NCBI GenBank assembly: GCA_945865645.1
Contig: CAMBEI010000003.1
Coordinates: forward strand, 8,308-72,307
Source: Chitinophaga pinensis
Lineage (GTDB): Bacteria > Bacteroidota > Bacteroidia > Chitinophagales > Chitinophagaceae
Length of the DNA: 64,000 nt
Direction: 5' to 3'
Shown here: piece by piece, positions 1-20,806 of the stretch
Layout: every line of letters starts with the position of its first letter
Position numbering within the stretch: position 1 is the stretch's first letter
The notes under the pieces: model-generated
What the model saw: only the letters and a program-made list of their open reading frames with translations
Databases searched by the model: none
What the model was told of the DNA's origin: nothing
Made by a program: the position numbers and the translations under genes

Positions 1-977
1 GCCAAAAAATTTTTCAGCGGATCCTTATATTTTTCAGTTACATCTTTCGCAATTTTATATTCAGCATTTATTTTTTCGTCGCTGGTAGCTTTTGCTTCCA
101 ATACCAGAAAGTCGTTTGCGTTACGAACATCATCCTTTAACCTGCTGGCTTCAATTTCCTTCAGCCATCCACTATCATAGGCCTGTTTGGCAATATTTTT
201 TGCACCTAGTTTATCAAAATCATCAACAAATATCGTAATCTTATTATAATTGGGTAATGCCTTGTCCAGTTTTTCCTTTGCTGTATTATAAGCTTTTAGA
301 AGTGTTGTATCGTTGGGATTTTTTTCTTTTTTTGCAAGTGTTTCACTTACCTCTTTTTTATATTTATCAACTTTTAAAAACTTCTCCAGGTTTTCATTCA
401 TTTTACTGTTTTCAAAATTATCGAATAAAAAAACAGTTAAAATGGTACCCAATGCTATAATGCCTAACCTAAGCCATACATTCCGCATGATGGTTATTAC
501 AGTAATAAAAATAGATATTAGCATTCCAATAAGCGGTGCCATAAAAATAAAAATTACAGTTTTTATGATGATGTCTGATTCTACAATCTTTCCCCAGCTT
601 ATTCCAAAACCTTTAATGGAAATGGCGTGTGCTATGGCAGCTCCGGCAAATCCACCAATCAGCGTATGGGATGAGGATGATGGAATACCATACCACCAGG
701 TTAATAAATTCCAGAATATGGCGGCAATAAGGCCCGATAAGATAACAGGTAGTGTTATAAATTCTCTGTTAACCGTTTTACTAATGGTATTGGCAACTGC
801 ATGATCTTTAAAAATAAAATAAGCCACACAATTAAAAAAAGCTGCCCAAACCACCGCCTGAAAAGGCGTAAGCACTTTGGTAGAAACTACCGTGGCTATA
901 GAGTTGGCCGCATCGTGAAATCCGTTGATGTAGTCGAATATTAAAGCCAGTGCTATAATTACTATTACAAGAGTCAT
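1..977 (-). CDS. Inorganic phosphate transporter, PiT family (3' end runs off window; long hydrophilic insertion)
   Basis: Manual translation from ATG at 977: MTLVIVIIALALIFDYINGFHDAANSIATVVSTK (PiT signature GFHDAAN) and later GGIPSSSSHTLIGG. The frame was open in the segments I translated, down to base 1. Missing from the ORF track because there is no stop in the window. Confidence 0.93.
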   Translation of the reverse strand, partial: MTLVIVIIALALIFDYINGFHDAANSIATVVSTKVLTPFQAVVWAAFFNCVAYFIFKDHAVANTISKTVNREFITLPVILSGLIAAIFWNLLTWWYGIPSSSSHTLIGGFAGAAIAHAISIKGFGISWGKIVESDIIIKTVIFIFMAPLIGMLISIFITVITIMRNVWLRLGIIALGTILTVFLFDNFENSKMNENLEKFLKVDKYKKEVSETLAKKEKNPNDTTLLKAYNTAKEKLDKALPNYNKITIFVDDFDKLGAKNIAKQAYDSGWLKEIEASRLKDDVRNANDFLVLEAKATSDEKINAEYKIAKDVTEKYKDPLKNFL

Positions 978-1084
978 ATTTTTTTATAATGTGCTAAAGT
1001 GCTGATGTGTTAATAAACTGATTTTTCAAAATTTTGGATAATCGGCGTTAGTTATTAACTTATCAGCATATTGGCTAATTAGAG

Positions 1085-1735
1085 TTAAGCATATTTTACA
1101 ATTATACTTTCTATCACATTGGCTGCATCCTCACATTTATCCGTTACAATTTCCATTACCTGGTATATTTCTCTTTTTTTAATCACTTCTTTAGCATCTA
1201 GTTCTTCGGCAAAAAGCTTTTCAATACTCATATCAAAAATATCATCCCCCTGATTTTCTATACTATTAATTGCCACCAAAGCATCTGTGATTTTACGCAT
1301 GTCTTTCATATTGCGTAATTCGGTAACTGCATTATGCACGGCAACGCAACCACTAGAAATAATATCGGCCATTTTATGGATGCCGGTATCATTGGGATTA
1401 ACGCGATAAAAATTTATTTTTTTTGCAGAGGCATAAATATAATCAGCAATATCATCTAAGGCAGATGCGAGATAATGTATATCTTCTCTATCGAAGGGGG
1501 TGATAAAATTTTTACCTAATTCGGTAAAAATTTGGTGTGTGTAATCATCATTTTCGTGTTCCATATCTTCAAGCTCCTTGATCAATTTGGCCCGGTCATC
1601 AAAATCGGGTTCATGTACAACTTCTTTAAGTTTTTCTCCCATTTTTACCAACACGCCTACAACACTTTCAAATAGTTGAAAAAATACCCTGTCTTTGGGT
1701 AAGAAAATATTGAGAATTGAATTTAATCCTGACAT
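1085..1735 (-). CDS. DUF47 / PhoU-like phosphate transport regulator
   Basis: FITPFDREDIHYLASALDDIADY and CEDAANVIESIIVKYA motifs; directly upstream of PiT. Start moved to ATG of MSGLNS. Confidence 0.92.
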   Translation of the reverse strand: MSGLNSILNIFLPKDRVFFQLFESVVGVLVKMGEKLKEVVHEPDFDDRAKLIKELEDMEHENDDYTHQIFTELGKNFITPFDREDIHYLASALDDIADYIYASAKKINFYRVNPNDTGIHKMADIISSGCVAVHNAVTELRNMKDMRKITDALVAINSIENQGDDIFDMSIEKLFAEELDAKEVIKKREIYQVMEIVTDKCEDAANVIESIIVKYA

Positions 1736-1793
1736 AATTATAAATTTTGGCAAAGGTTACTTTTTAGTTCAAAAAGTTAAGCCCTTTTAAAAT

Positions 1794-1826
1794 GGTAACG
1801 ATTTATTAACACATAGGTAACATTAA
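1794..1826 (+). promoter_or_regulatory. Pho-box-like 11-bp direct repeat array (3 units)
   Basis: ggtaacgattt / attaacacata / ggtaacattaa; TAAC at 1796, 1807, 1818; upstream of the porin remnant in the same orientation. Confidence 0.65.
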
Positions 1827-1855
1827 ATTGTTATTTCTTTAATCCCAAATGGATT

Positions 1856-2125
1856 ATGCTTAAGAAAAATTACCATTACTGTCTATAATGCTGCTGTTTT
1901 GTCATTTGTTACATGCACAATATTTAAAGGATATGGTTGATACTAGTAAAGTAACAGGTCGTTGTTCACAGTACAATAGGTTTTGGCTATATATATTATT
2001 TAACAGAGAATGTAAAAATTGTTTTCTATTATAACAAAGTAACCAATGAAAAAGCACAACTCCAAGGTTTTACATCTGATGTTAAAGACGATGTACTTAC
2101 ATGCAGGTTGCAATTCAGGTTTTAA
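1856..2125 (+). pseudogene. Internally deleted outer-membrane porin (probably phosphate-selective OprO/OprP-like)
   Basis: ATG at 1856, then a frameshift in an A-run. Signal-peptide-like KLPLLSIMLLFCHLLHA|QYLKDMVDTSK is joined out of frame at about 1960 to STIGFGYIYYLTENVKIVFYYNKVTNEKAQLQGFTSDVKDDVLTCRLQFRF* (beta-barrel C-terminal Phe signal). Family call is from recollection of Chitinophagaceae porin termini. Confidence 0.75.
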
Positions 2126-2130
2126 TACAC

Positions 2131-2191
2131 TTAACAATTAAGTAATATACAGGTAACAATAGCGTAACTTTTAATTCATGTTGGTATAACA
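2131..2191 (+). promoter_or_regulatory. Pho-box-like 11-bp direct repeat array (5-6 units) upstream of TonB receptor
   Basis: TAAC 2132, TAAT 2143, TAAC 2154, TAAC 2165, TCAT 2176, TAAC 2187; TTTG at 2205. Confidence 0.75.
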
Positions 2192-7065: not shown

Positions 7066-7068
7066 TGT

Positions 7069-7124
7069 ATAACATTTACATAATCATTCATTTAACTTAT
7101 GATAACACCGGCTGTGTACTTTAC
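7069..7124 (+). promoter_or_regulatory. Pho-box-like array plus -7-like element
   Basis: TAAC 7070, TAAT 7081, TAAC 7093 (1 nt off phase), TAAC 7103; TTTAC at 7120 (17 nt after the last unit, as at 7900). Confidence 0.5.
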
Positions 7125-7130
7125 AATCGA

Positions 7131-7225
7131 ATAGTTAGTTGCACATATTCAAAAAAATTCTTAGCAATTAGAGCAGGTTTATCATGCTTATCCCACCCGG
7201 TATTCTTATCAGGGTGGCTTTTTTT
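7131..7225 (+). ncRNA. Candidate ~95-nt small RNA
   Basis: Lies between the array/-7-like element and a clear terminator; no convincing ORF. Could instead be the 3' UTR of the upstream gene. Confidence 0.25.
7192..7225 (+). terminator. Rho-independent terminator
   Basis: ccaccc (7193-98) / gggtgg (7212-17) stem followed by T7. Confidence 0.75.
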
Positions 7226-7346
7226 AATATGAAATTAACGTTACGAAATTGTTACTACGCACATTTAAGTCACATTTTTTTTCACATGCCCGAAATAAGG
7301 AATTTTGAAATTATATTCACATTCACTTCACATAAAAACATAACAA

Positions 7347-7838: not shown

Positions 7839-7865
7839 TTTTATATTTGTATTTACGTTAATTCA

Positions 7866-7921
7866 ATAATATTGACTTAATGCTAAGTTAATAATTTAGT
7901 AACTCCCAATTTTTAATTTGC
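7866..7921 (+). promoter_or_regulatory. Pho-box-like array (4 units) plus -7-like element for the PAP2 operon
   Basis: TAAT 7867, TAAT 7878, TAAT 7889, TAAC 7900; TTTGC at 7917. Confidence 0.7.
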
Positions 7922-7933
7922 ATAGCAAATAAT

Positions 7934-8632
7934 ATGCTGATGCAAAATAAAATTTCCCTCTTTACCCAAAACAAGGTCTACTTTGGCGGTCTTTTACTGA
8001 CCATATTATTTGGAATACTACTTTTACTTTTAAATGGCAAAGCTGCTGCTTTTATTGCACTTAACAGCTACCACCCCTTTTACCTAAATGTTTTTTTTAT
8101 CAACTACACATTTATAGGTGATGGCCTATTTGCATTATGCCTGATAGCCATTTATTTTTTTTACCTTAAAAAAAAACAACAGGGATTTGCTTTACTCTAC
8201 TCTTTTCTAATATCTGGTCTGGCAGCACAAATATTAAAAAACCTGGTTAATTCACCCCGGCCAAAACTTTATTTTGAGGCAGGAACGTATTTAAATTTTA
8301 TAGAAGGGGTGACATTGAGTGGCCGTTCTGGCTTTCCTTCCGGTCACACGGCTACTGCTTTTGCCATTGCTACAGTATTGGTATTAATGATGAAAAATAA
8401 AAATTGGCAGTTTCTTATTTTAAGTGCTGCGCTTTTAGTAGGTTATTCACGTATTTACTTAGCGCAGCACTTTTTGTTAGATGTAATAGTTGGTGCATTA
8501 CTTGGGTGTTTGTCTGGAATTTTAGCTTTTTATATTGCTCAGAATAGAATAAGTATTAAAAAAATACTTAGGAAATTACACCGAGTTCCAAATAAATCGG
8601 CTTCTTCAGCTTCTACTATACAAACGGCATGA
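7934..8632 (+). CDS. PAP2-family membrane phosphatase
   Basis: K..VNSPRP (C1), FPSGH (C2), SRIYLAQHFLLD (C3) motifs; hydrophobic. Confidence 0.93.
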   Translation: MLMQNKISLFTQNKVYFGGLLLTILFGILLLLLNGKAAAFIALNSYHPFYLNVFFINYTFIGDGLFALCLIAIYFFYLKKKQQGFALLYSFLISGLAAQILKNLVNSPRPKLYFEAGTYLNFIEGVTLSGRSGFPSGHTATAFAIATVLVLMMKNKNWQFLILSAALLVGYSRIYLAQHFLLDVIVGALLGCLSGILAFYIAQNRISIKKILRKLHRVPNKSASSASTIQTA

Positions 8633-9012
8633 ATAATGCCATAAATACACACATCGTAAAATACGGTCTTGTTGGTTTAAGTGGTATGGCCATAGATTTT
8701 ACCATAACCTGGCTTTGCAAAGAAAAACTTGGGATAAACAAATATTTGTCAAATGCTGTAGGCTTTTGCTTTGCAGTTACCAGCAACTTTATATTTAACA
8801 GGCATTGGACATTTGAAAGCCATATCCAAGAGTTTACAGGCCAGTTTGCCAGATTTATACTGGTTGCACTAACCGGCTTGTTGATTAATAATCTTTTGTT
8901 ATATCTGTTTGTAAAGAAATTTAAACTAAATTTTTATGTCTTAAAGCTAACCGTTATTGGCTTTGTGTTTTTATGGAACTATCTTTTGAATTTGCTTTTT
9001 ACTTTTAATTAA
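8629..9012 (+). CDS. GtrA family protein (polyprenyl-phosphate-sugar translocase)
   Basis: 127 aa, four TM segments, KYGLVG..G..ID, NFIFNRHWTF, WNYLLN; overlaps PAP2 stop (ATGA). Confidence 0.92.
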   Translation: MNNAINTHIVKYGLVGLSGMAIDFTITWLCKEKLGINKYLSNAVGFCFAVTSNFIFNRHWTFESHIQEFTGQFARFILVALTGLLINNLLLYLFVKKFKLNFYVLKLTVIGFVFLWNYLLNLLFTFN

Positions 9013-9017
9013 AAGTA

Positions 9018-10574
9018 TTGAATTATAAAAATAAAACATGGTTGCTGATTATCATTGCAACAGTTGTACGCTATATTACGGCCTGCAGTGTTGAACTGGG
9101 CAATGATGAAGTGTATTACAGGATGTATGCACAATATCTTCAGTGGAATTATTTTGATCATCCACCCATAGCAGGCTGGCTGATTCGTTTTACAACAGCC
9201 AACCTTTTTTTTGATCATGAATGTTTCATTCGCCTGGGTGCCATCATTTCGGCAGCTATTACAACCTGGTTTATTTTTTTAAGTGGCAAAAAACTGAATA
9301 ATGAATACACAGGTTTTTTGGCAGCGGTCATATATACCTGTAGTATCTACGGAAGTATCATTGCAGGTACTTTTATTTTGCCCGATTCGCCTCAAATGAT
9401 CTGCTGGTCAGCGGGATTGTATGTATTGATTGGACTGACCAGATACAGACATATTAACAGCACAAAAAAAAGAGACCTTTTACTATTTGGTTTTATTGCA
9501 GGCATTGGTATGCTGTGCAAAATACATACAGCATTTTTATGGCTGGGTTTACTATTGTATATCTTGGTGTATAACAGACAATGGCTTAAAGAACCTGCAC
9601 TATATATTTCAGCCATCATTTCCATAGCCTTATTTTACCCGGTAATAAAATGGAATATTGACACTCATTTTGTAACCTACCTGTACCATAGCAAAAGGGT
9701 TGCTGTAGCCAACAGCGGAATAGATATCAACTCCTTTTTAACTTTTAGCGGCGGACAAATATTTTATACCAATCCTGTTATTTTCTTCTTAATCATAGGC
9801 TCAACGATTGCTGCCTTTAAAAATAATTTACCAGTTTCGGTATTTCAAAAAAGATTATTGTTATTTACCAGTTTACCGCTTATTATACTTGCCACTTTTA
9901 TTTCACTATTTAAAAATGTACTTCCGCATTGGACCGGCCCTGCATACTGTGGCCTTATATTATTAACAGCTTGTTACCTCAGTAAGATAAGCTTGACAAC
10001 TGTCTTTGAAAAAACATGGATGCCAAAAATTTTGGTGATTGCCTGTATTTTTCAAATGGTTATCATTATTGCAGGAATTTTACTGATCAACTTTATACCC
10101 GGTACCTTAGGTAAAAAAGAAAAAATACATTTGGGTGAAGGTGATTTTACATTAGACATGTATGGTTGGGGAAATCTGAAAACGCAATTCAAAAAAATAG
10201 CTGAGGCTGATTTAAAAAGGGGTAGTATGAAAAAAGAGGCTGTTATCATTTGTAATAAATGGTTTCCGGCATCGCATATCGATTTTTATGCAGCCATGCC
10301 TTTAAATAAAGATCTGGTTGCCCTTGGTGATACCAATGATATACACCAGTATGCCTGGATAAACAATGAACGCAAAAAACTAAAATCCGGAGATGAGGCT
10401 TATTGTATAGTGCCGTCTAACTATTATGTGGATGTAAAAACAGTTTATGCAGGTTATTTTGAAACCATAGAGCTTCCGCAGATTATTGAACAGAAAAGGA
10501 ATGGCGAAATTTGTCGATATTTTTATATCTGGCGAATGAAAAAATTTATTGAAAAACAAAAGCCTCGTACTTAA
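9018..10574 (+). CDS. ArnT/PMT-like (GT39/GT83-type) membrane glycosyltransferase
   Basis: DEVYY, YFDHPP..GWLI, PDSP, KIH, HW motifs; multi-TM; TTG start. Confidence 0.9.
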   Translation: MNYKNKTWLLIIIATVVRYITACSVELGNDEVYYRMYAQYLQWNYFDHPPIAGWLIRFTTANLFFDHECFIRLGAIISAAITTWFIFLSGKKLNNEYTGFLAAVIYTCSIYGSIIAGTFILPDSPQMICWSAGLYVLIGLTRYRHINSTKKRDLLLFGFIAGIGMLCKIHTAFLWLGLLLYILVYNRQWLKEPALYISAIISIALFYPVIKWNIDTHFVTYLYHSKRVAVANSGIDINSFLTFSGGQIFYTNPVIFFLIIGSTIAAFKNNLPVSVFQKRLLLFTSLPLIILATFISLFKNVLPHWTGPAYCGLILLTACYLSKISLTTVFEKTWMPKILVIACIFQMVIIIAGILLINFIPGTLGKKEKIHLGEGDFTLDMYGWGNLKTQFKKIAEADLKRGSMKKEAVIICNKWFPASHIDFYAAMPLNKDLVALGDTNDIHQYAWINNERKKLKSGDEAYCIVPSNYYVDVKTVYAGYFETIELPQIIEQKRNGEICRYFYIWRMKKFIEKQKPRT

Positions 10575-10672: not shown

Positions 10673-12067
10673 TTATAATATTATTTTTTCACTTTCTTCA
10701 TTCCGGCACTCTTTTGAAGCTGCCAATGCATTTTTTAGAAAACAGCTATACCAGCTTCCCGAATTTTTTACAGTTCTTTTTTGTGTCTTAAAATCTACGC
10801 TAACGAGTCCAAATTTTGGATAATACCCTTCTGCCCATTCAAAATTATCCATCAGGGTCCATACAAAATAACCGTTTACCTTTACCCCTTCTCTTTTTGC
10901 CAGTAAAACCTGCGCAATATAATCCTGCAAAAACCGTACCCTTTTAAAATCTTCAACCCGGTATTCTTCAAAACTATCATTAAATGCTGCACCATTTTCG
11001 GTAATTATTATTTCTTTTATCTCTTTGTAATTGTGCAGTCGTTTTAATGCATTGTATATACTGGGTGGATAAACTTCCCAATCCATCAATGTATGTTCTA
11101 CATTTCTTTTGCTGGCTTTAATAATCTTTGCTTTTACAAATGGCATCAGCGGGGCATAACTTACAAACTCTCGGGTGTAATTCTGCAGACCAATAAAATC
11201 CATTTCGAAGGCCAGTTTTTTTTCGTCGTTCGGATGCATGAAACGTTCAATTCGATCCAGTATTTTTAAATCAGCCGTTGGGTAACCAAGTCCCAGTAAG
11301 GGTTCAATAAACATACGGTTAATCAGTGCATCTACTTTTGCTGCAGCTTTTACATCCTTTTCATTATTATACCGGTAAGGCTCTATATGTGAATATGAAA
11401 AAGTAGTTCCAACTTTACATTCTCCCCTTAGTGATTTTATAATTCTTCCGCCCTCGGCCTGGCATATAGCAGCATGATGGGCTGCAGCCAAAAAACTGCT
11501 TAACCCTTTTTTGCCTGGTGCATGTACGCCCAAAAAATACCCGGCACCGGTAAATACCATTGGCTCGTTAAGTACCATCCAGTACTTTACGCGGTCGCCA
11601 AAATACTTAATACAGCAATCCACAAAATAGCTGAACCAGTGTATTACTTCCCGGTTGACCCAGCCCCCTTTTTGCTGCAGGGCTTCTGGCAAATCCCAGT
11701 GGTACAGGGTTATCCAGGGCTCAATACCAAGCTCTAAACAAAAATCAATTACCCGGTTGTAAAAATCAATGCCCTTGTGATTTACAGCACCAATGCCATT
11801 TGGTAAAATACGGCTCCATGAAATTGAAAACCGGTGATTGGGAATGTTAAGTTTGTATATGAGTGCAATATCCTCTGCATAGTGTTTGTAATAATCACAG
11901 GCGATATTACCGTTATCATTATTGAAAATTTTTTTCTTCTTCCCGGTAAAACTGTCCCAAATAGAAGGGCCTTTCCCATCGGCATTATGACCACCTTCTA
12001 TCTGGTATGCTGCAGTTGAAACACCCCATTTAAAATCCTCTCCAAAATCATTTCTTGTAAAAAGCAT
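10673..12067 (-). CDS. GH1 beta-glucosidase
   Basis: WGVSTAAYQIEG, RFSISWSRI, TLYHWDLP, NEP acid/base, ITENG nucleophile, DNFEWAEG. Confidence 0.95.
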   Translation of the reverse strand: MLFTRNDFGEDFKWGVSTAAYQIEGGHNADGKGPSIWDSFTGKKKKIFNNDNGNIACDYYKHYAEDIALIYKLNIPNHRFSISWSRILPNGIGAVNHKGIDFYNRVIDFCLELGIEPWITLYHWDLPEALQQKGGWVNREVIHWFSYFVDCCIKYFGDRVKYWMVLNEPMVFTGAGYFLGVHAPGKKGLSSFLAAAHHAAICQAEGGRIIKSLRGECKVGTTFSYSHIEPYRYNNEKDVKAAAKVDALINRMFIEPLLGLGYPTADLKILDRIERFMHPNDEKKLAFEMDFIGLQNYTREFVSYAPLMPFVKAKIIKASKRNVEHTLMDWEVYPPSIYNALKRLHNYKEIKEIIITENGAAFNDSFEEYRVEDFKRVRFLQDYIAQVLLAKREGVKVNGYFVWTLMDNFEWAEGYYPKFGLVSVDFKTQKRTVKNSGSWYSCFLKNALAASKECRNEESEKIIL

Positions 12068-12071
12068 AAAC

Positions 12072-13160
12072 TTATTCCCCCAGTTGATTTAATATTTTCC
12101 CTAGGCTTTTTTCTTTTAATTTTTTAATTGAATAAACTCCATCTCCTAATTCTACAGATTTTTTATTATCCGTATTATGATGTTTTTTTATGATCATGTT
12201 AATGATCCGTTGCGTAGTATCCGGGTAGTTCACAATGATTTGCTGATCTGATGCTACCCAATCTTTAATAGTATCCAGGTATTTTTTCTTAAGACTTTTT
12301 ATAACCGGAACGCTCATTGTTTTTAATGCCGCCGCATTGCATTGCTGCTCGTACTGCCCTTTCATGGGTATTACTATCAGTTTCTTTTTTAAAAAGAGGG
12401 CTTCTGCGGGTGTTTCAAAACCGGCGCCACATAACACACCTGTGCAGTTAATAAAGCTTTCGATAAATGCTTCATTATTGATAGGTCTGATATGGATTTT
12501 TTTTACAGAGTATTCTTTTTTTGTATGCTTACTGAACACCTGCCAGTTTATATTTTTTATTTCACCCAGCACTTTAATAATTTTTTCATCGCTGTAGGCA
12601 GGCAAGTAAACAGTATAATGACTTTTATTTTCAGGTTTACTCTCTCGCATCTGGTTTCGAATTACAGGTGTAAAAATATTTTTATCATAAGCGCCAAAAT
12701 GAAAACCGTAGGCCGCCGTAACGGGTGCATAATTATTAAGCACTGCTTTGCCAACGATATCTTTCTTTTTGGGTTTGGGCGATTTTTTGTTGATCACTGC
12801 AGCCTGGTGGCTAAGTCCCACACATTCCTTATTTTGCATTTTACAGGCCCAGGCGCTTACCGGTTCAAAATCATTTATCACCAGGTCGTAATCTGCTATG
12901 GACAAGCTTTTTATTTCTTTGTACAGTTGTCTCAAATTACTTTTTCGGTAAGTGGCAATCAAATCGATGCCGCCGTTTTTTCCAAAAATAAAACTCAGCC
13001 CCTTAAACCTGTATTTTACAGGATAAGGCAAAACCACATCTGCCTGTATGCCACTCACTAAAATATCTAGCTCTCCTTTTTGCTGCAGTATAGGAATTAT
13101 ATCTCTGGCCCTGCTTAAATGTCCGTTACCAGTACCTTGTATAGCATAAAGTATCTTCAT
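12072..13160 (-). CDS. GT-B glycosyltransferase (MJ1255/VC2487-like)
   Basis: MKILYAIQGTGNGHLSRA, NDFEP, GAGFETPAEAL, GQYEQ..NA motifs; TAATG coupling to the upstream gene. Confidence 0.88.
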   Translation of the reverse strand: MKILYAIQGTGNGHLSRARDIIPILQQKGELDILVSGIQADVVLPYPVKYRFKGLSFIFGKNGGIDLIATYRKSNLRQLYKEIKSLSIADYDLVINDFEPVSAWACKMQNKECVGLSHQAAVINKKSPKPKKKDIVGKAVLNNYAPVTAAYGFHFGAYDKNIFTPVIRNQMRESKPENKSHYTVYLPAYSDEKIIKVLGEIKNINWQVFSKHTKKEYSVKKIHIRPINNEAFIESFINCTGVLCGAGFETPAEALFLKKKLIVIPMKGQYEQQCNAAALKTMSVPVIKSLKKKYLDTIKDWVASDQQIIVNYPDTTQRIINMIIKKHHNTDNKKSVELGDGVYSIKKLKEKSLGKILNQLGE

Positions 13161-14017
13161 TATTGTTTCATCAGGTTAAATTCTTCCACCATATTATCAA
13201 ATAGCTCAGCATTATTAAGCTCTTCTTCTTCGCAACTAAATTCAAACAATTGCTTCATTTCATTTTCATTGTATCGGTAAATCTTCCATTCACCATTACT
13301 GTGCTCAAGTGAAGTTAAATTTTCAATCCAATCACCACTATTTAGGTATATTATCTTTCCGTGTTCATTTTCAATTGTACGTATTTCGGGCTGATGTATA
13401 TGTCCGCAAACAACATAATCGTATTGATTGCTGATACCTATATCTGCAGCCGTTTGTTCAAAACTGTTAATGAATTTTACTGCGCCTTTCACACTGTTCT
13501 TTATTTTTTTAGATAAAGAAAGTTTACCTTTTTTAAATATTTTTTCAGAAATAAAATTAGCAAGGTGGTTAATGTGTATCAGGGTATCGTAACCAACAGC
13601 TCCTAGCTTTGCCAGCCATTTACTGTGCTGCATAGTTACATCAAACACATCGCCATGAAAAAACCAGGCTTTTTTCCCATCATCCAGTTCCAGTATTACT
13701 TTATTTACAATTTTAAGAGAGCCCATTTTAAAACCAACAAACTTGCGTAGCATTTCATCATGGTTGCCTGTAATGTAGTATATCTTAACCCCTTTACTCA
13801 TCCAATGCATTAATTGTTTTATAACCTTCATATGGCTCTTGGGCCAGTATCGTTTGCTGAACTGCCAGATATCAATAATATCGCCGTTAAGTATTACCGT
13901 TTTGGGCTTTATTGTTTTAAAATAGAGCAACAACTCTTTTGCATGGCATCCGTAAGTTCCCAAATGCACATCCGACAAAACAAGTATATCCAACTTCCGC
14001 TTTTTTATTTTATCCAT
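13160..14017 (-). CDS. Metallophosphoesterase, LpxH-like superfamily, most similar to PlcP-type intracellular phospholipase C
   Basis: SDVHLG, GDIIDIW, GNHDE, HGDVFD, CGHIH, NSGDWIE motifs; KRYWPKSH and WLAKLGAVGYD segments resemble PlcP; adjacent glycosyltransferase. Confidence 0.8.
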   Translation of the reverse strand: MDKIKKRKLDILVLSDVHLGTYGCHAKELLLYFKTIKPKTVILNGDIIDIWQFSKRYWPKSHMKVIKQLMHWMSKGVKIYYITGNHDEMLRKFVGFKMGSLKIVNKVILELDDGKKAWFFHGDVFDVTMQHSKWLAKLGAVGYDTLIHINHLANFISEKIFKKGKLSLSKKIKNSVKGAVKFINSFEQTAADIGISNQYDYVVCGHIHQPEIRTIENEHGKIIYLNSGDWIENLTSLEHSNGEWKIYRYNENEMKQLFEFSCEEEELNNAELFDNMVEEFNLMKQ

Positions 14018-14176
14018 TAATGGACTTTAAAAAATTTCAATGGCGAATAAAAAGCTGAAAGCATGGGCAGAAAAATTCTTACAGAAAGTTGCAGAAAAAA
14101 ATATTGAATATTTTTCATGACGTAAGATTATGGGTTACTAATTATTGTAAAGTGAAGCAATGTATGTAACCAAATG

Positions 14177-14203
14177 TTTATGCTAATGTTACGCGAGTGT
14201 TAA
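14177..14203 (-). promoter_or_regulatory. Pho-box-like array (proximal) for the phosphoesterase operon
   Basis: + strand TTTA 14177, GTTA 14188, GTTA 14199 (TAAH on - strand); TTTG on - strand 17 nt downstream of the 14188 unit. Confidence 0.55.
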
Positions 14204-14233
14204 GTTTGGATATTGTATAAAAAACAGGGCAGT

Positions 14234-14282
14234 TTTATCAAATTGTTATTTAATTGTTAGCATAACTTTATAAAAAAGTTAA
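14234..14282 (-). promoter_or_regulatory. Pho-box-like array (distal, 5 units)
   Basis: + strand TTTA 14234, GTTA 14245, GTTA 14256, TTTA 14267, GTTA 14278; exact 11-nt period. Confidence 0.65.
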
Positions 14283-14351
14283 CTATTTGTAATAGCAGTC
14301 TTTGTATTGTTTTGTCAACAATATTTGCAGTAATTATAAAAGATACTGTTT

Positions 14352-18975: not shown

Positions 18976-20025
18976 TTAATCTTTTTTACTCTGCAGCGTA
19001 AACCCAAAGGTACTGCCCACATCAATCTTACTACGCACATGTATGGTTTGATCATGCGCTTCAATAATATGTTTGCAAATGGCTAACCCTAAACCACTTC
19101 CACCTACTTTGCGGCTTCGGGCAAGGTCAGTGCGGTAAAAGCGCTCAAATATCCGCAGCAAATGTTCTTCGGCAATACCAGAACCATCGTCGCTTATTTC
19201 TATTAAAACCCTGGCACCATCCACTTTATAAAAACTGGCTTCAATAGTGCCATTTTGTTTACCGTATTTGATGGCATTATCAAACAGGTTAATAAAAATC
19301 TGTCTTATTTTTTCTTTGTCCGCATAAACAGATAAAGACAATTCGCAGCCTTTTTTAATACTGTATCTTATTTGTTTTTCATCGGCTACAAAAGACAATG
19401 ATTCATTCACCTCTTTTACCAAATCCTGAATAATAAAATTATTTTTTAATAACAGTTGTTGGCCACTTTCCAGTTTTGATATCGAATCCAGATCATCAAC
19501 CAGGTTTACCAACCTGTCGATATTGCGGGAAGTGCTTTGCAGAAATTTTTTATTTACTTCGGGATTTTCCAAAGCTCCGTTCAATAATGTATCTATATAA
19601 CCCTGAATAGCAAAAATGGGGGTTTTCAATTCATGGCTCAGGTTTTGTAAAAATTCTTTCCGGTAGGCTTCATTTTGCTGCAGCAGTTCAATTTCCTCTT
19701 TATGTTGTTCTGCCCAGGCTTCTACATCCTCCCTTACTTTATCAATGCTTTTTTGAGGTAATATATTTTTATAATAAAACTCTTCTCTTTTACTGGCCTT
19801 GGTGTGATAAATGAATTTATAAATGAGTTTTATTTTGCGGTAGATAAAGGTTTGCAGGGTGTAAACAATTAAACCGTAAGCCCCCAGAAAGATTATGATG
19901 CATGACAATAAAGCGATCCACCATACAGGCTTAAAAACAAAAATTCCTATGGATATTGGTATGGATAACCCAAGTGCCGTTAATGCAGATAATTGCTGTG
20001 GCGAAAAATTTTTTGATGTAGGCAT
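18976..20025 (-). CDS. phoR: Sensor histidine kinase, PhoR-like
   Basis: Two N-terminal TMs, no large sensor domain; SHELKTP H-box, N-box (NLFDNAIKY), DDGSGI, FERFYR, GSGLGLAI. Confidence 0.75.
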   Translation of the reverse strand: MPTSKNFSPQQLSALTALGLSIPISIGIFVFKPVWWIALLSCIIIFLGAYGLIVYTLQTFIYRKIKLIYKFIYHTKASKREEFYYKNILPQKSIDKVREDVEAWAEQHKEEIELLQQNEAYRKEFLQNLSHELKTPIFAIQGYIDTLLNGALENPEVNKKFLQSTSRNIDRLVNLVDDLDSISKLESGQQLLLKNNFIIQDLVKEVNESLSFVADEKQIRYSIKKGCELSLSVYADKEKIRQIFINLFDNAIKYGKQNGTIEASFYKVDGARVLIEISDDGSGIAEEHLLRIFERFYRTDLARSRKVGGSGLGLAICKHIIEAHDQTIHVRSKIDVGSTFGFTLQSKKD

Positions 20026-20099
20026 AGTAAATAAGCTGCAAGCTACAAGCTACAAGGGAAAGTATTTGATTTTAATTCAGTTTTCTTCCTGCCAACTGC

Positions 20100-20792
20100 T
20101 TACTGCTCTAACAAATCAAATTTATAACCAACACCTTTTACAGTGGTAATACAATCTAGGTTTAGTTTCTGACGCACTTTGCGAATATGCACATCAATGG
20201 TGCGGTCTCCAACAATAACTTCGGTTCCCCATATCTGATTTAAAATTTCATTGCGCAAAAAAACCTTACCAGGCTTGCTAGCTAATAAAGCTAGTAATTC
20301 GAACTCTTTACGAGCAAGTATAATATTTTTCCCCTGGTAATTAACAATGTATTTTTCTCGATCTATTTTTAAATCGCCTATTTGTAGAACTCCGGTATCT
20401 TCTTTATTTAATCTTCTAAACAAAGCATTTACTTTACTCACCAATACTTTTGGACTAATAGGTTTGTTAATAAAATCATCGGCACCGATTTCTAATCCTT
20501 TTATTTCGGTTCCTTCGTCACTTAAAGCTGTTAAAAATATAATGAGGGCATCATTAAATGCCGGTTGCATTCGAAGTATATTACAAACTTCAATACCATT
20601 TTTTCCGGGCATCATAATATCTAGTATAATCAAATTGGGGTTAAAGCGTTTTGCTTGTTCAATGGCTTCATTTCCATTTTTAGCTGTTGCCACTTCATAC
20701 CCTTCATTTTGTAAATTATACTGGATAATTTCCAAAATGTCTGGCTCGTCATCAGCAATCAGTATTTTTTTAATTGTGTTAGGTATGTTCAT
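20100..20792 (-). CDS. phoP: OmpR/PhoB-family response regulator, PhoP-like
   Basis: ADDE, LDIMMP, KP receiver motifs; winged-helix IWGTEVIVGDRTIDVHIRKVRQKL..TVKGVGY. Start moved to ATG 20792 because a -7 element overlaps the longer start. Confidence 0.78.
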   Translation of the reverse strand: MNIPNTIKKILIADDEPDILEIIQYNLQNEGYEVATAKNGNEAIEQAKRFNPNLIILDIMMPGKNGIEVCNILRMQPAFNDALIIFLTALSDEGTEIKGLEIGADDFINKPISPKVLVSKVNALFRRLNKEDTGVLQIGDLKIDREKYIVNYQGKNIILARKEFELLALLASKPGKVFLRNEILNQIWGTEVIVGDRTIDVHIRKVRQKLNLDCITTVKGVGYKFDLLEQ

Positions 20793-20798
20793 GCAGTG

Positions 20799-20806
20799 CA
20801 AAAATA
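20799..20806 (-). promoter_or_regulatory. Bacteroidota sigma70 -7 element
   Basis: TATTTTTG matches TAnnTTTG. Confidence 0.7.

What the first reader, a model, noticed from the sequence alone, without database searches (positions are those of the whole stretch)
10673..14017. PlcP-like phospholipase + glycosyltransferase + GH1: phospholipid-to-glycolipid remodelling with an extra glycosidase
Established: plcP next to a glycosyltransferase converts phospholipids to DAG and glycolipids under P stress in alphaproteobacteria. Here the transferase is a different (MJ1255-like) family, and a cytoplasmic GH1 with intact NEP/ENG residues is co-transcribed behind two Pho-like arrays. Inference: the GH1 either recycles glycolipids when Pi returns or acts as a lipid transglycosylase, as the plant GH1 SFR2 does. 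The acceptor could be DAG or ceramide, since many Bacteroidota make sphingolipids.
Basis: partly seen in the sequence, partly recalled or inferred. Interest (0 to 1): 0.65.

Follow-up and report, generated by a model that had tools for sequence, protein, structure and literature searches.

The report
Phosphate-starvation lipid-swap operon with glucosidase
A freshwater Bacteroidota genome carries a tightly packed operon (small peptide, PlcP-type phospholipase, MurG-like sugar transferase, GH1 beta-glucosidase) that probably replaces phospholipids with glycolipids when phosphate is scarce; the first two enzymes are a known pairing, while the recurrent, phosphate-linked glucosidase and the small peptide appear to be undescribed.

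Summary
Three minus-strand genes, translationally coupled or nearly so, encode a metallophosphoesterase, a GT-B glycosyltransferase and a cytoplasmic GH1 beta-glucosidase. They lie behind two phased 11-bp repeat arrays and about 5 kb from the genome's best PhoR/PhoB homologues.

- **Phosphoesterase.** It is a PlcP orthologue: 36-39% identical to the characterised S. meliloti and P. aeruginosa PlcP, against 22% to E. coli LpxH. A separate LpxH-like gene lies elsewhere in the genome.
- **Transferase.** It is unrelated to the GT4 enzyme Agt. Its model matches the inverting MurG/GT1 folds, so its product should be a beta-glycoside, which is the linkage a GH1 cleaves.
- **What is already known.** The PlcP + "uncharacterised glycosyltransferase" pair in Bacteroidetes was noted in 2016, and both genes are Pi-induced in F. 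johnsoniae.
- **What I found no description of.**
  - An orthologous GH1 follows the transferase in 37 of 80 Bacteroidota loci from several orders.
  - The GH1 stays beside the transferase even where plcP is elsewhere or absent.
  - Unlinked copies often carry the same upstream arrays.
  - The likely F. johnsoniae orthologue (Fjoh_4857) is low-P-specific in a published proteome supplement.
  - A conserved 33-45-aa sORF precedes plcP only in GH1-containing operons.
- **Open.** The role of the GH1 (glycolipid trimming, turnover or transglycosylation) is inferred, not shown.

The parts
14238..14283 (-). Distal Pho-box-like array: four [GT]TAAC-type units at 11-bp spacing, about -264 to -221 from the plcP ATG. 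The intergenic region is shared with the divergent T9SS gene at 14352.
   Evidence: Sequence inspection. It is one of only 5 strict arrays in the genome.
14159..14204 (-). Proximal Pho-box-like array (TTAAC / GTAAC / ATAAA / GTTAC at 11-bp spacing), about -185 to -142 from the plcP ATG.
   Evidence: Equivalent arrays sit upstream of plcP orthologues across Bacteroidota.
14017..14118 (-). Conserved small ORF of 33 aa (MKNIQYFFLQLSVRIFLPMLSAFYSPLKFFKVH). It has a hydrophobic N-terminal part, a C-terminal [FY]SP[LF]K[FY]xK motif, and a stop that overlaps the plcP start (TAATG).
   Evidence: An HMM of the peptides hits E<1e-8 only at this position in 17 loci, with no other strong hit among about 7,000 small ORFs. 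None are found in the reverse-complement control. It occurs in 13 of 34 GH1-containing loci and 0 of 43 without GH1. A lake metatranscriptome contig covers 13966-14131.
13160..14017 (-). plcP-like metallophosphoesterase (285 aa) with all catalytic motifs: SDVHLG 15, GDIID 45, GNHDE 84, HGD 121, GHIH 205.
   Evidence: 39% identity, E 3e-61 to P. aeruginosa PA3219. 36% identity, E 4e-49 to S. meliloti SMc00171. 22% identity, E 2e-8 to E. coli LpxH. Trees.
12072..13160 (-). GT-B glycosyltransferase (362 aa) of the MJ1255/VC2487-like family (PF13528). It has an N-terminal GTGNGH loop like that of MurG (the MurG motif is recalled from memory) and a disordered tail ending in helices.
   Evidence: AlphaFold2 model with pLDDT 88.5. 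The top Foldseek hits are MurG (GT28) and GT1 UGTs. No similarity to the GT4 enzyme Agt1.
10673..12067 (-). Cytoplasmic GH1 beta-glucosidase (464 aa) with NEP at residue 167 and ENG at 357.
   Evidence: Operon-linked orthologues cluster in the GH1 tree.
18976..20801 (-). Context only: PhoR-like histidine kinase (18976-20025) and PhoB-like OmpR-family regulator (20100-20801). They are the likely regulators acting on the arrays.
   Evidence: They are the best PhoB (35% identity, E 1e-45) and PhoR (E 2e-36) homologues in the genome. Pfam hits. They are 53% and 39% identical to the Flavobacterium RR/HK pair that lies, with a phosphate porin O/P gene between, near the GT28-like GT.

Best explanation
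This is a phosphate-starvation membrane-lipid remodelling operon with four cistrons: sORF, plcP, GT and GH1.

1. **Induction (inferred).** The neighbouring PhoR/PhoB-like pair binds the phased [GT]TAAC arrays when Pi is scarce and switches the operon on.
2. **PlcP (by homology to characterised PlcPs).** It cleaves the phospho-head group from phospholipids such as PE. This releases P for reuse and leaves diacylglycerol.
3. **Transferase (inferred from the fold).** The MurG/MGD-like inverting GT-B enzyme transfers a hexose from a UDP-sugar to diacylglycerol. The product is a phosphorus-free beta-glycosyl-diacylglycerol.
4. **GH1 (inferred from gene linkage, anomeric match and shared regulation).** This retaining beta-glycosidase acts on the beta-glycoside made by the transferase. 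It may trim or turn over the head group to control glycolipid and DAG levels, or it may move sugars between glycolipid molecules.
5. **sORF (speculative).** The small hydrophobic, basic peptide may tether or regulate these peripheral enzymes at the membrane.
For: **PlcP identity.**
- Pairwise E values are 3e-61 and 4e-49 to the two experimentally characterised PlcPs, against 2e-8 to E. coli LpxH.
- A second LpxH-like gene scores 88 bits with the LpxH model elsewhere in the genome.
- The LpxH pair is split from the family with 99% support.
- Homologues are fused to GT4 domains or embedded in a GT4-PAP2-PlcP-BtaA-BtaB cluster.
- The gene is accessory and nearly always single-copy: 103 of 151 genera of the family have it.

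**GT coupling and fold.**
- The GT follows plcP in 77 of 80 loci. In the family sample 92 genomes have both, 11 have only PE and 3 have only the GT.
- The fold hits are inverting GT28 and GT1 enzymes.

**GH1 link.**
- It is the only other widely conserved neighbour, present in 37 of 80 loci.
- Linked copies cluster in the tree: 7 changes of the label against 21 in shuffles.
- GT-GH1 adjacency persists where plcP is elsewhere (G057) or absent (G103).
- 9-10 of 25 unlinked GH1 genes carry the same arrays upstream.

**Regulation.**
- The window's HK/RR are the genome's best PhoR/PhoB homologues.
- Arrays upstream of plcP are conserved in 76 loci: median score 12.3 against 1.7 for other intergenic regions, p 8e-27.
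- In the literature, Dokdonia plcP is induced by P starvation (PMC4796936). F. johnsoniae PlcP and the GT next to phoBR are induced 8.6 and 5.4 log2-fold. A 51.2-kDa beta-glucosidase, Fjoh_4857, is detected essentially only in low P (PMC8115612). That mass matches the Flavobacterium GH1 orthologues.

**Transcription.** Lake metatranscriptome contigs cover the sORF, plcP, the GT and the 3' end of the GH1.
Against: - No lipid product is known for the Bacteroidota pair. P-starved Dokdonia MED134 was reported to be rich in aminolipids, with no glycolipid highlighted (PMC4796936).
- Co-expressing a synthase and a hydrolase for the same bond looks futile.
- The GH1 is a canonical BglA-type enzyme with no lipid-specific feature that I could see.
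- In a phylum-wide sample only 5 of 13 genomes with this GH1 clade have it next to the GT, and 5 have no P0002-type GT at all. The GH1 therefore does not strictly depend on this GT.
- Identifying Fjoh_4857 as the GH1 orthologue rests on its name and mass, not on its sequence.
- Pho control is inferred from motifs and neighbourhood. RNA evidence is fragmentary, and the tool warns that DNA can be present in such runs.
Confidence: 0.55

Rival explanations
1. plcP and the GT remodel lipids as above, but the GH1 is an ordinary cytoplasmic beta-glucosidase for imported beta-glucosides such as cellobiose, laminaribiose or aryl glucosides. On this view it was recruited into the Pho regulon for metabolic reasons. 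It might provide a hydrolytic, phosphate-sparing route to glucose, or supply glucose for UDP-glucose. It would not act on the glycolipid.
For: - It scores above the curated cut-off of the generic GH1 BGL equivalog, and its best solved relatives are classical beta-glucosidases.
- The same clade occurs as a stand-alone gene in Flavobacterium and others that lack the P0002-type GT.
- Within Chitinophagaceae most type-B copies are unlinked.
Against: - The stand-alone copy examined (G169) is not beside any glycan-utilisation or transporter genes that Pfam recognised.
- The window's 2.08-Mb genome keeps the gene only inside this operon.
- GT-GH1 adjacency is kept after rearrangements that move or lose plcP.
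- The sORF co-varies with GH1 presence.
- The anomeric specificity matches an inverting GT.
Confidence: 0.25
2. The GT and GH1 form a glucosylation/deglucosylation pair for an acceptor other than diacylglycerol. Candidates are ceramide from sphingophospholipids cleaved by PlcP, a carotenoid or flexirubin-type pigment, or another hydrophobic alcohol. This would resemble GT1 macrolide or terpenoid glucosyltransferases paired with glucosidases.
For: - The structural neighbours include small-molecule GT1 UGTs such as OleD, YjiC and CalG.
- GT-GH1 pairs exist without plcP (G103, G100).
- No Bacteroidota glycosyl-DAG was reported in the papers I read.
Against: - GT and plcP co-occur and are adjacent almost universally.
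- PlcP relatives are fused to lipid GT4 domains or clustered with the DAG-using BtaAB.
- No pigment or sphingolipid genes are conserved in the neighbourhood.
Confidence: 0.12
3. The phosphoesterase is a second LpxH acting on UDP-2,3-diacylglucosamine, and the operon modifies lipid A or LPS precursors rather than phospholipids.
For: - Public annotations call it LpxH.
- It gives weak hits to the LpxH models.
- A PAP2-GtrA-ArnT-like envelope operon lies next door.
Against: - Its scores are far below both LpxH cut-offs.
- It is 22-24% identical to LpxH and 36-39% identical to PlcP.
- A better LpxH candidate is present elsewhere in the genome.
- The gene is absent from a third of the genera in the family, so it is not an essential lipid A step.
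Confidence: 0.03

Closest known systems
PlcP-Agt lipid-renovation operons of Proteobacteria (S. meliloti SMc00171; Phaeobacter MED193; SAR11 HTCC7211; P. aeruginosa PA3219-PA3218; B. cenocepacia BCAL2364-2366)
   Same: - An orthologous PlcP-type metallophosphoesterase lies directly upstream of a glycosyltransferase.
- The operon is under probable Pho control.
- The expected outcome is replacement of phospholipids by glycosyl-DAG.
- A variable third gene is known in these operons (dagK in Burkholderia; PMC13691135).
   Different: - The GT is not GT4 (retaining, alpha-linked products). It is a MurG/GT1-like inverting GT-B of the MJ1255/VC2487-like family.
- The third gene is a GH1 glycosidase.
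- A conserved sORF precedes plcP.
Bacteroidetes 'plcP + uncharacterised glycosyltransferase' arrangement (Sebastian et al. 2016, Table S2) and the F. johnsoniae Pho regulon (Lidbury et al. 2020)
   Same: - It is the same gene pair in the same phylum.
- plcP is P-inducible in Dokdonia.
- PlcP (Fjoh_4577) and the GT28-like GT (Fjoh_0541) are Pi-induced in F. johnsoniae.
   Different: - Neither paper mentions a glucosidase partner in its text, and no sORF is described in what I read.
- In Flavobacterium the three genes are dispersed, and the GT is only a distant relative of P0002.
- Here all the genes form one operon.
Plant MGD1 (GT28) + SFR2 (GH1 galactolipid:galactolipid galactosyltransferase)
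   Same: An inverting GT28-like lipid glycosyltransferase that makes a beta-glycosyl-DAG is combined with a GH1 enzyme acting on that lipid. This is a functional analogy and comes from my own knowledge of the plant system.
   Different: - The GH1 here is a canonical soluble BglA-type enzyme with no membrane anchor. I did not test it for any specific resemblance to SFR2; its best solved relatives are classical beta-glucosidases.
- No transferase activity has been shown.
LpxH (UDP-2,3-diacylglucosamine diphosphatase)
   Same: Both belong to the same metallophosphoesterase superfamily and share the overall architecture. Public annotation gives this name.
   Different: - It falls below both curated LpxH cut-offs.
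- It is 22% identical to E. coli LpxH.
- A separate LpxH-like gene is present in the genome.
- Its distribution is accessory rather than universal.

Membership tests
PlcP (phospholipase C of lipid remodelling) | Sequence is closer to experimentally characterised PlcP than to LpxH | tested here: met
   39% identity, E 3e-61 to PA3219. 36% identity, E 4e-49 to SMc00171. 22% identity, E 2e-8 to E. coli LpxH. Trees.
PlcP (phospholipase C of lipid remodelling) | Complete metallophosphoesterase metal-binding motifs | tested here: met
   DxH, GD, GNHD, HGD and GHxH are all present.
PlcP (phospholipase C of lipid remodelling) | A separate housekeeping LpxH (or LpxI) is present, so this gene is a paralogue | tested here: met
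   G000:C12:40182-40877 scores 87.8 bits with TIGR01854.
PlcP (phospholipase C of lipid remodelling) | Genomic association with genes that synthesise non-phosphorus lipids | tested here: met
   The GT lies downstream in 77 of 80 loci. Relatives are fused to GT4 or lie next to btaAB.
PlcP (phospholipase C of lipid remodelling) | Induction by phosphate starvation through PhoB | tested here: inconclusive
   Phased arrays are conserved upstream and PhoBR homologues are adjacent. Orthologues are induced in Dokdonia and F. johnsoniae according to the literature. There are no expression data under controlled Pi for this organism.
PlcP (phospholipase C of lipid remodelling) | Phospholipase C activity that releases diacylglycerol | not testable with these tools
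   This needs an enzyme assay or lipidomics.
Agt (GT4 glycolipid glycosyltransferase) | GT4 domains (PF13439 / PF00534) and similarity to Agt1 | tested here: not met
   P0002 has only PF13528. BLASTP against PA3218 gives E 4.2. PA3218 itself is GT4.
MJ1255/VC2487 family glycosyltransferase (TIGR00661) | Score above the curated cut-off | tested here: not met
   168.3 bits against a cut-off of 195.9. It is the best-scoring model, and Pfam PF13528 is passed (113 against 25), so this is a near relative or sister group of the family.
Inverting GT-B fold (GT28 MurG/MGD-like, GT1) | Two-Rossmann GT-B fold most similar to GT28/GT1 enzymes, with an N-terminal glycine-rich loop containing His | tested here: met
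   Model pLDDT 88.5. The top 50 Foldseek hits are MurG and GT1 UGTs. The GTGNGH motif is invariant in 31 orthologues. The inverting mechanism itself is inferred.
GH1 beta-glucosidase (TIGR03356 BGL) | Score above the curated cut-off, with the catalytic acid/base (NEP) and nucleophile (ENG) present | tested here: met
   524.9 bits against a cut-off of 478.5. NEP at residue 167 and ENG at 357.
SFR2-type GH1 lipid transglycosylase | Specific sequence relationship to SFR2, a membrane anchor, and transferase activity on glycolipids | not tested
   No SFR2 sequence was compared. The best solved relatives are canonical soluble beta-glucosidases, and no hydrophobic anchor is visible in the sequence. 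Activity cannot be tested with these tools.
LpxH | Score above the NCBIfam equivalog cut-offs | tested here: not met
   50.1 against 134 and 39.2 against 190.35 bits.

The most novel reading that the evidence does not exclude
The GH1 is a dedicated glycolipid enzyme of the Bacteroidota Pho regulon. It would be either a bacterial counterpart of plant SFR2, building oligoglycosyl-DAG and releasing DAG by transglycosylation from the beta-glycosyl-DAG made by the MurG-like GT, or a head-group editing hydrolase. The conserved sORF peptide would serve as its membrane adaptor. This would define a four-component lipid-remodelling module distinct from the proteobacterial PlcP-Agt system.
Probability: 0.2. 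Interest if true: 0.8.

Novelty: new variant of a known kind. Interest (0 to 1): 0.55.

Why it matters
Swapping phospholipids for P-free lipids is a major way bacteria lower their phosphorus quota in P-poor waters and soils. So far it is understood mainly from Proteobacteria.

Bacteroidota are abundant in lakes, oceans and rhizospheres, yet the product of their plcP-linked transferase is unknown. This work contributes four things:

- **The transferase.** It is an inverting MurG-like enzyme.
- **The glucosidase.** A beta-glucosidase is a recurrent, probably Pho-regulated partner, apparently including an overlooked low-P-specific protein in a published F. johnsoniae proteome.
- **The small peptide.** Its presence tracks with the glucosidase.
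- **What this opens up.** Together these give a concrete, testable model for a different glycolipid chemistry, and they name cultured species in which to test it.

The work also supplies a candidate Bacteroidota Pho-box motif that is conserved upstream of the operon.

Tried and rejected
- **Diverse alignment as a query.** A 50-sequence alignment of homologues was too divergent for the search for related loci. A 13-sequence subset worked.
- **Naming the distant homologues.** The listing of cluster members on ten of them gave no organism names.
- **AU test.** I tested whether P0001 can be forced next to LpxH. The result was uninformative: the constrained tree scored better than the quick free search, p 0.73. 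I rely on pairwise scores and branch support instead.
- **First sORF scan.** It used mis-set plcP starts and under-counted. I redid it from a conserved motif and then with an HMM.
- **Genome-wide array scan.** The PWM was trained on the window's own sites, so the top hits are circular. Beyond the window's sites, scores drop to background. I therefore tested the motif on other genomes, using a PWM that leaves out the plcP promoter.
- **"This GH1 type is always next to the GT".** This held in the family sample (10 of 10 type-A copies) but failed in the phylum sample. I downgraded it to "frequent".
- **Literature searches.** I found nothing on the function of MJ1255/VC2487. The top-ranked hits of a PlcP + beta-glucosidase/GH1 search showed no link between the two, and the top hits of a Pho-box search gave no Bacteroidota Pho-box consensus.
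- **DNA-run search.** It showed only that the organism is a widespread lake bacterium.
- **Rejected: LpxH function.** See the fourth rival explanation.
- **Rejected: a secreted GH1.** No signal peptide is present.
- **Rejected: a 6-phospho-beta-glucosidase.** The BGL equivalog is passed, the 6-phospho models are far below their cut-offs, and the DNFEW Glu is present.


Full report
**Observation.**
- The first is a calcineurin-like metallophosphoesterase. It gives only weak hits to the LpxH models: 50 and 39 bits against cut-offs of 134 and 190.
- The second is a PF13528 GT-B glycosyltransferase. Its best NCBIfam model is MJ1255/VC2487, at 168 bits against a cut-off of 195.9.
- The third passes the curated GH1 beta-glucosidase equivalog, at 525 bits against 478.5.
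- The PE stop overlaps the GT start (TAATG), and the GT and GH1 are 4 nt apart. The scan finds no minus-strand terminator-like site in the region.
- None of the three proteins has a visible signal peptide.

**Organism.** The genome is a 2.08-Mb, 100%-complete Chitinophagaceae (Ferruginibacter-like) assembly. Near-identical DNA is found in many lake metagenomes.

**The phosphoesterase is PlcP, not LpxH.** The genome holds a second, better LpxH candidate on another contig: 87.8 bits with TIGR01854, and only 24% identical to P0001.

I recovered two experimentally characterised PlcP genes from mislabelled PLSDB records.
- S. meliloti SMc00171 was recognised by its sinR/sinI neighbours.
- P. aeruginosa PA3219 was recognised by the downstream GT4 gene agt1 and cyaB.

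P0001 is 36% identical to the first (E 4e-49) and 39% identical to the second (E 3e-61). Against E. coli LpxH it is 22% identical (E 2e-8).

In trees of 113-115 family members, the two LpxH sequences are split from everything else with 99% SH-aLRT support. An AU test on the quick tree was uninformative.

Two more facts tie the family to diacylglycerol-based lipid synthesis:
- Two relatives are natural fusions of a GT4 domain to this phosphoesterase.
- Another relative sits in a GT4-PAP2-PlcP-BtaA(DUF3419)-methyltransferase cluster, the known plcP-btaAB arrangement.

The gene is accessory and nearly always single-copy, present in 103 of 151 genera of the family. That distribution does not fit an essential lipid A enzyme.

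**The transferase.** P. aeruginosa Agt1 is GT4 and has no detectable similarity to P0002. An AlphaFold2 model built on 31 orthologues (pLDDT 88.5) matches MurG (GT28) best, followed by GT1 UDP-glycosyltransferases such as YjiC, OleD and CalG. All of these are inverting GT-B enzymes.
- The N-terminal GTGNGH loop is invariant and resembles the MurG G-loop. That resemblance is from my own knowledge.
- I infer that the enzyme uses a UDP-alpha-sugar and forms a beta-glycoside.
- That is the linkage a retaining GH1 beta-glycosidase cleaves. The GT4 Agt enzymes, by contrast, make alpha-linked lipids.
- No paper in the library describes the MJ1255/VC2487 family.

**What is already known.**
- Sebastian et al. 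2016 (PMC4796936) found PlcP homologues in Flavobacteria. They showed plcP induction on P starvation in Dokdonia MED134.
- Their Table S2 lists an "Uncharacterised glycosyltransferase" next to plcP in about twenty Bacteroidetes, including Polaribacter, Robiginitalea, Pedobacter, Fulvivirga and Cytophaga.
- Lidbury et al. 2020 (PMC8115612) list F. johnsoniae PlcP (Fjoh_4577, log2FC 8.6) and a pf04101 GT in the phoBR operon (Fjoh_0541, log2FC 5.4) under "lipid remodelling".
- The plcP + GT core is therefore not new. Neither paper mentions a glucosidase partner in its text or, for the first, in its supplement.

**The GH1 link is real and conserved.** I examined 80 named Bacteroidota loci from Chitinophagales, Flavobacteriales, Cytophagales, Sphingobacteriales and Bacteroidales.
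- The GT follows plcP in 77 of them.
- A GH1 hit is present in 38, and an orthologue (51-78% identical) lies beside the GT in 35 by inspection.
- Clustering of all neighbouring ORFs shows that only plcP (78 loci), the GT (77), the GH1 (37) and a PhoB-like regulator (13) recur.
- These 80 loci are the closest relatives of the query, so they over-represent the full operon.

Less biased samples give lower figures.
- In 151 genera of the family, plcP is in 103, the GT in 95 and the GH1 clade in 40. The GT and GH1 are adjacent in 14.
- In 201 genomes across the phylum, the GH1 clade is in 13. It is GT-linked in 5, unlinked in 3, and in 5 there is no P0002-type GT at all. Four of those 5 are in one family, three of them Flavobacterium.

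The GH1s fall into two sequence types.
- Type A (AAYQIEG / NEPMV / QNYT), which includes P0003, was adjacent to the GT in all 10 family-sample genomes that have it. This includes G057, where plcP lies 400 kb away, and G103, which has no plcP. In G039, GT-GH1 stay together while plcP is inverted.
- Type B (AAAQNEG / NEPMG / QNYF) is mostly unlinked.

In the GH1 tree the "linked" label needs 7 changes against 21 in shuffles, with none of 500 shuffles as low.

The GH1 is therefore tied most tightly to the GT, but the tie is not obligate.

**Regulation.** The window's histidine kinase and OmpR-type regulator (18976-20801) are the genome's best PhoR and PhoB homologues. No pstSCA or phoU homologue was detected with E. 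coli queries, and a PiT + DUF47 pair lies at the window's start.

The intergenic region upstream of plcP holds two arrays of four [GT]TAAC-like units at 11-bp spacing. That is the architecture PhoB-type regulators use. Strict arrays occur 5 times in the genome against 1.2 expected, and 4 of the 5 are in this window.

To avoid circularity I built a weight matrix from the window's other promoters only and applied it to other genomes.
- The intergenic region upstream of plcP in 76 loci scores a median of 12.3.
- Other intergenic regions of the same loci score 1.7 (Mann-Whitney p 8e-27), and shuffles score 2.7 (p 1e-35).
- 9-10 of 25 unlinked GH1 genes of this clade carry sense-strand arrays scoring above 13 upstream, including a Flavobacterium copy.

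In Flavobacterium a distant relative of the GT (PF04101 plus a weak PF13528 hit) lies close to the PhoR-PhoB pair, with a phosphate porin O/P gene between them. This reproduces the Fjoh_0541-0544 layout.

The cellular-proteome sheet of Lidbury et al. lists Fjoh_4857, "Beta-glucosidase", 51.2 kDa.
- Its log2 LFQ is 21.4-24.6 in eleven of the nine high-P, low-Fe and low-N samples taken together with one outlier: eight of the nine lie at 21.4-24.6, and one low-Fe replicate reads 26.1.
- In the three low-P samples it is 28.5-28.7.
- Peptide counts are 14, 11 and 13 in low P against 0-1 elsewhere.
- It is flagged significant but never discussed in the text.

Flavobacterium orthologues of the GH1 are 450 aa and 51.1-51.4 kDa. 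Fjoh_4857 is therefore very probably this GH1, though I could not check its sequence. If so, the same trio is Pi-induced in F. johnsoniae although the genes are dispersed.

Lake metatranscriptome contigs at 99% identity or more cover plcP, the GT, the 3' end of the GH1 and the region upstream of plcP. This is weak evidence of expression in situ.

**A fourth cistron.** Directly upstream of plcP lies a 33-aa ORF (14017-14118, minus strand) whose stop overlaps the plcP start.
- Equivalent ORFs of 33-45 aa share a hydrophobic N-terminal part and a C-terminal [FY]SP[LF]K[FY]xK motif. They occur in Chitinophagales, Flavobacteriales and Cytophagales.
- An HMM of them finds strong hits only at this position among about 7,000 small ORFs.
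- The reverse-complement control gives none.
- Strong hits occur in 13 of 34 GH1-containing loci and in 0 of 43 loci without GH1 (Fisher p 5e-6). Weaker versions occur in further GH1 loci.
- Conservation at the amino-acid level argues for a functional peptide rather than a mere leader. Its role is unknown.

**Interpretation.** The plcP + GT part is a Bacteroidota version of the PlcP-Agt lipid-renovation module, with a different, inverting transferase. I hold this with high confidence (about 0.8).

That the GH1 acts on the transferase's beta-glycoside product is the most economical reading. Five things point that way: the linkage, the persistence of GT-GH1 pairs, the shared upstream arrays, the low-P-specific protein in F. 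johnsoniae, and the anomeric match. It remains an inference (about 0.45-0.5).
- Co-expression with the synthase argues against simple recycling when Pi returns.
- It argues instead for trimming, homeostasis or transglycosylation during starvation. The Burkholderia operon carries dagK as a comparable third, balancing gene (PMC13691135).
- The main rival is a general cytoplasmic beta-glucosidase recruited to the Pho regulon. Its canonical sequence and its stand-alone occurrence in genomes lacking this GT favour that view.

**Verdict.** I class this as a new variant of a known kind, of moderate interest. It offers clear experiments in cultured strains and in F. johnsoniae.

Noticed in passing
window 14017-14118 (-); also L034:5900-6001, L039:5888-5992, L049:5879-6004, L055:5869-5982 and others: A conserved, translationally coupled 33-45-aa sORF lies upstream of plcP, with the motif [FY]SP[LF]K[FY]xK. 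It is found only in operons that also contain the GH1.
   Followed up: yes
window 1796-2154, 7066-7260, 7860-7920, 14159-14283; plcP-upstream regions of L034-L113: Phased 11-bp [GT]TAAC(A) arrays are concentrated in this 13-kb stretch of the genome. They are conserved upstream of plcP orthologues across Bacteroidota, and upstream of many unlinked GH1 genes. This is a candidate Bacteroidota Pho box. The top hits of my literature search gave no published consensus.
   Followed up: partly
whole genome G000: tblastn with E. coli queries detects no pstS, pstC, pstA or phoU homologue. Phosphate uptake seems to rest on the PiT + DUF47 pair at window 3-1753.
   Followed up: partly
PMC8115612 supplement, sheet S2-DSM2064-CP: F. 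johnsoniae Fjoh_4857 ('Beta-glucosidase', 51.2 kDa) is detected almost only under low P (log2 LFQ 28.5-28.7; eight of nine other samples at 21.4-24.6, one low-Fe replicate at 26.1). It is not discussed in the paper's text.
   Followed up: partly
P0192 (663 aa) and P0237 (564 aa); locus L117: Natural fusions of an N-terminal GT4 glycosyltransferase to a C-terminal PlcP-family phosphoesterase, found in metagenomes. This is Rosetta-stone support for PlcP-GT coupling.
   Followed up: partly
L114-L116 (microbial mat metagenome): A GT4-PAP2-PlcP-BtaA(DUF3419)-methyltransferase cluster. It is a combined glycolipid and betaine-lipid remodelling locus that includes a PAP2 phosphatase.
   Followed up: no
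alignment A1 (P0176, P0188, P0232, P0259 and others): Several PlcP-family representatives have degenerate metal-binding motifs, for example ISNLYLST, GMYKD and SAYIQQP. They may be catalytically dead paralogues.
   Followed up: no
PLSDB records CP090106.1 and NZ_CP042268.1: A 3.72-Mb S. meliloti record labelled 'pSymB' carries chromosomal genes (sinI, sinR, SMc00171). P. aeruginosa 'plasmids' of 96-167 kb carry the chromosomal PA3217-PA3219 region. These are probably mislabelled or misassembled records.
   Followed up: no
G056 and G334 (same genus as the window): One congener lacks plcP, the GT and the GH1 altogether. Another has plcP-GT with an unlinked type-B-like GH1. The module is gained, lost or rearranged within a single genus.
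   Followed up: partly
L148 (G004:C5:37000-44000): Here plcP is followed directly by a 516-aa GH1 from a different, distant clade that carries a Tat-like signal peptide. The GT is on another contig.
   Followed up: no
L160 (G103:C1:4323500-4331500): A GT-GH1 pair in a genome without plcP lies downstream of an exported enzyme of the alkaline-phosphatase/phosphodiesterase superfamily (PF01663/PF01676).
   Followed up: partly
window 7934-10574 (+): A PAP2-GtrA-ArnT-like (PMT_2) operon converges on the GH1 gene and also has a phased array upstream. It may modify the envelope or lipid A in a phosphate-linked way.
   Followed up: no
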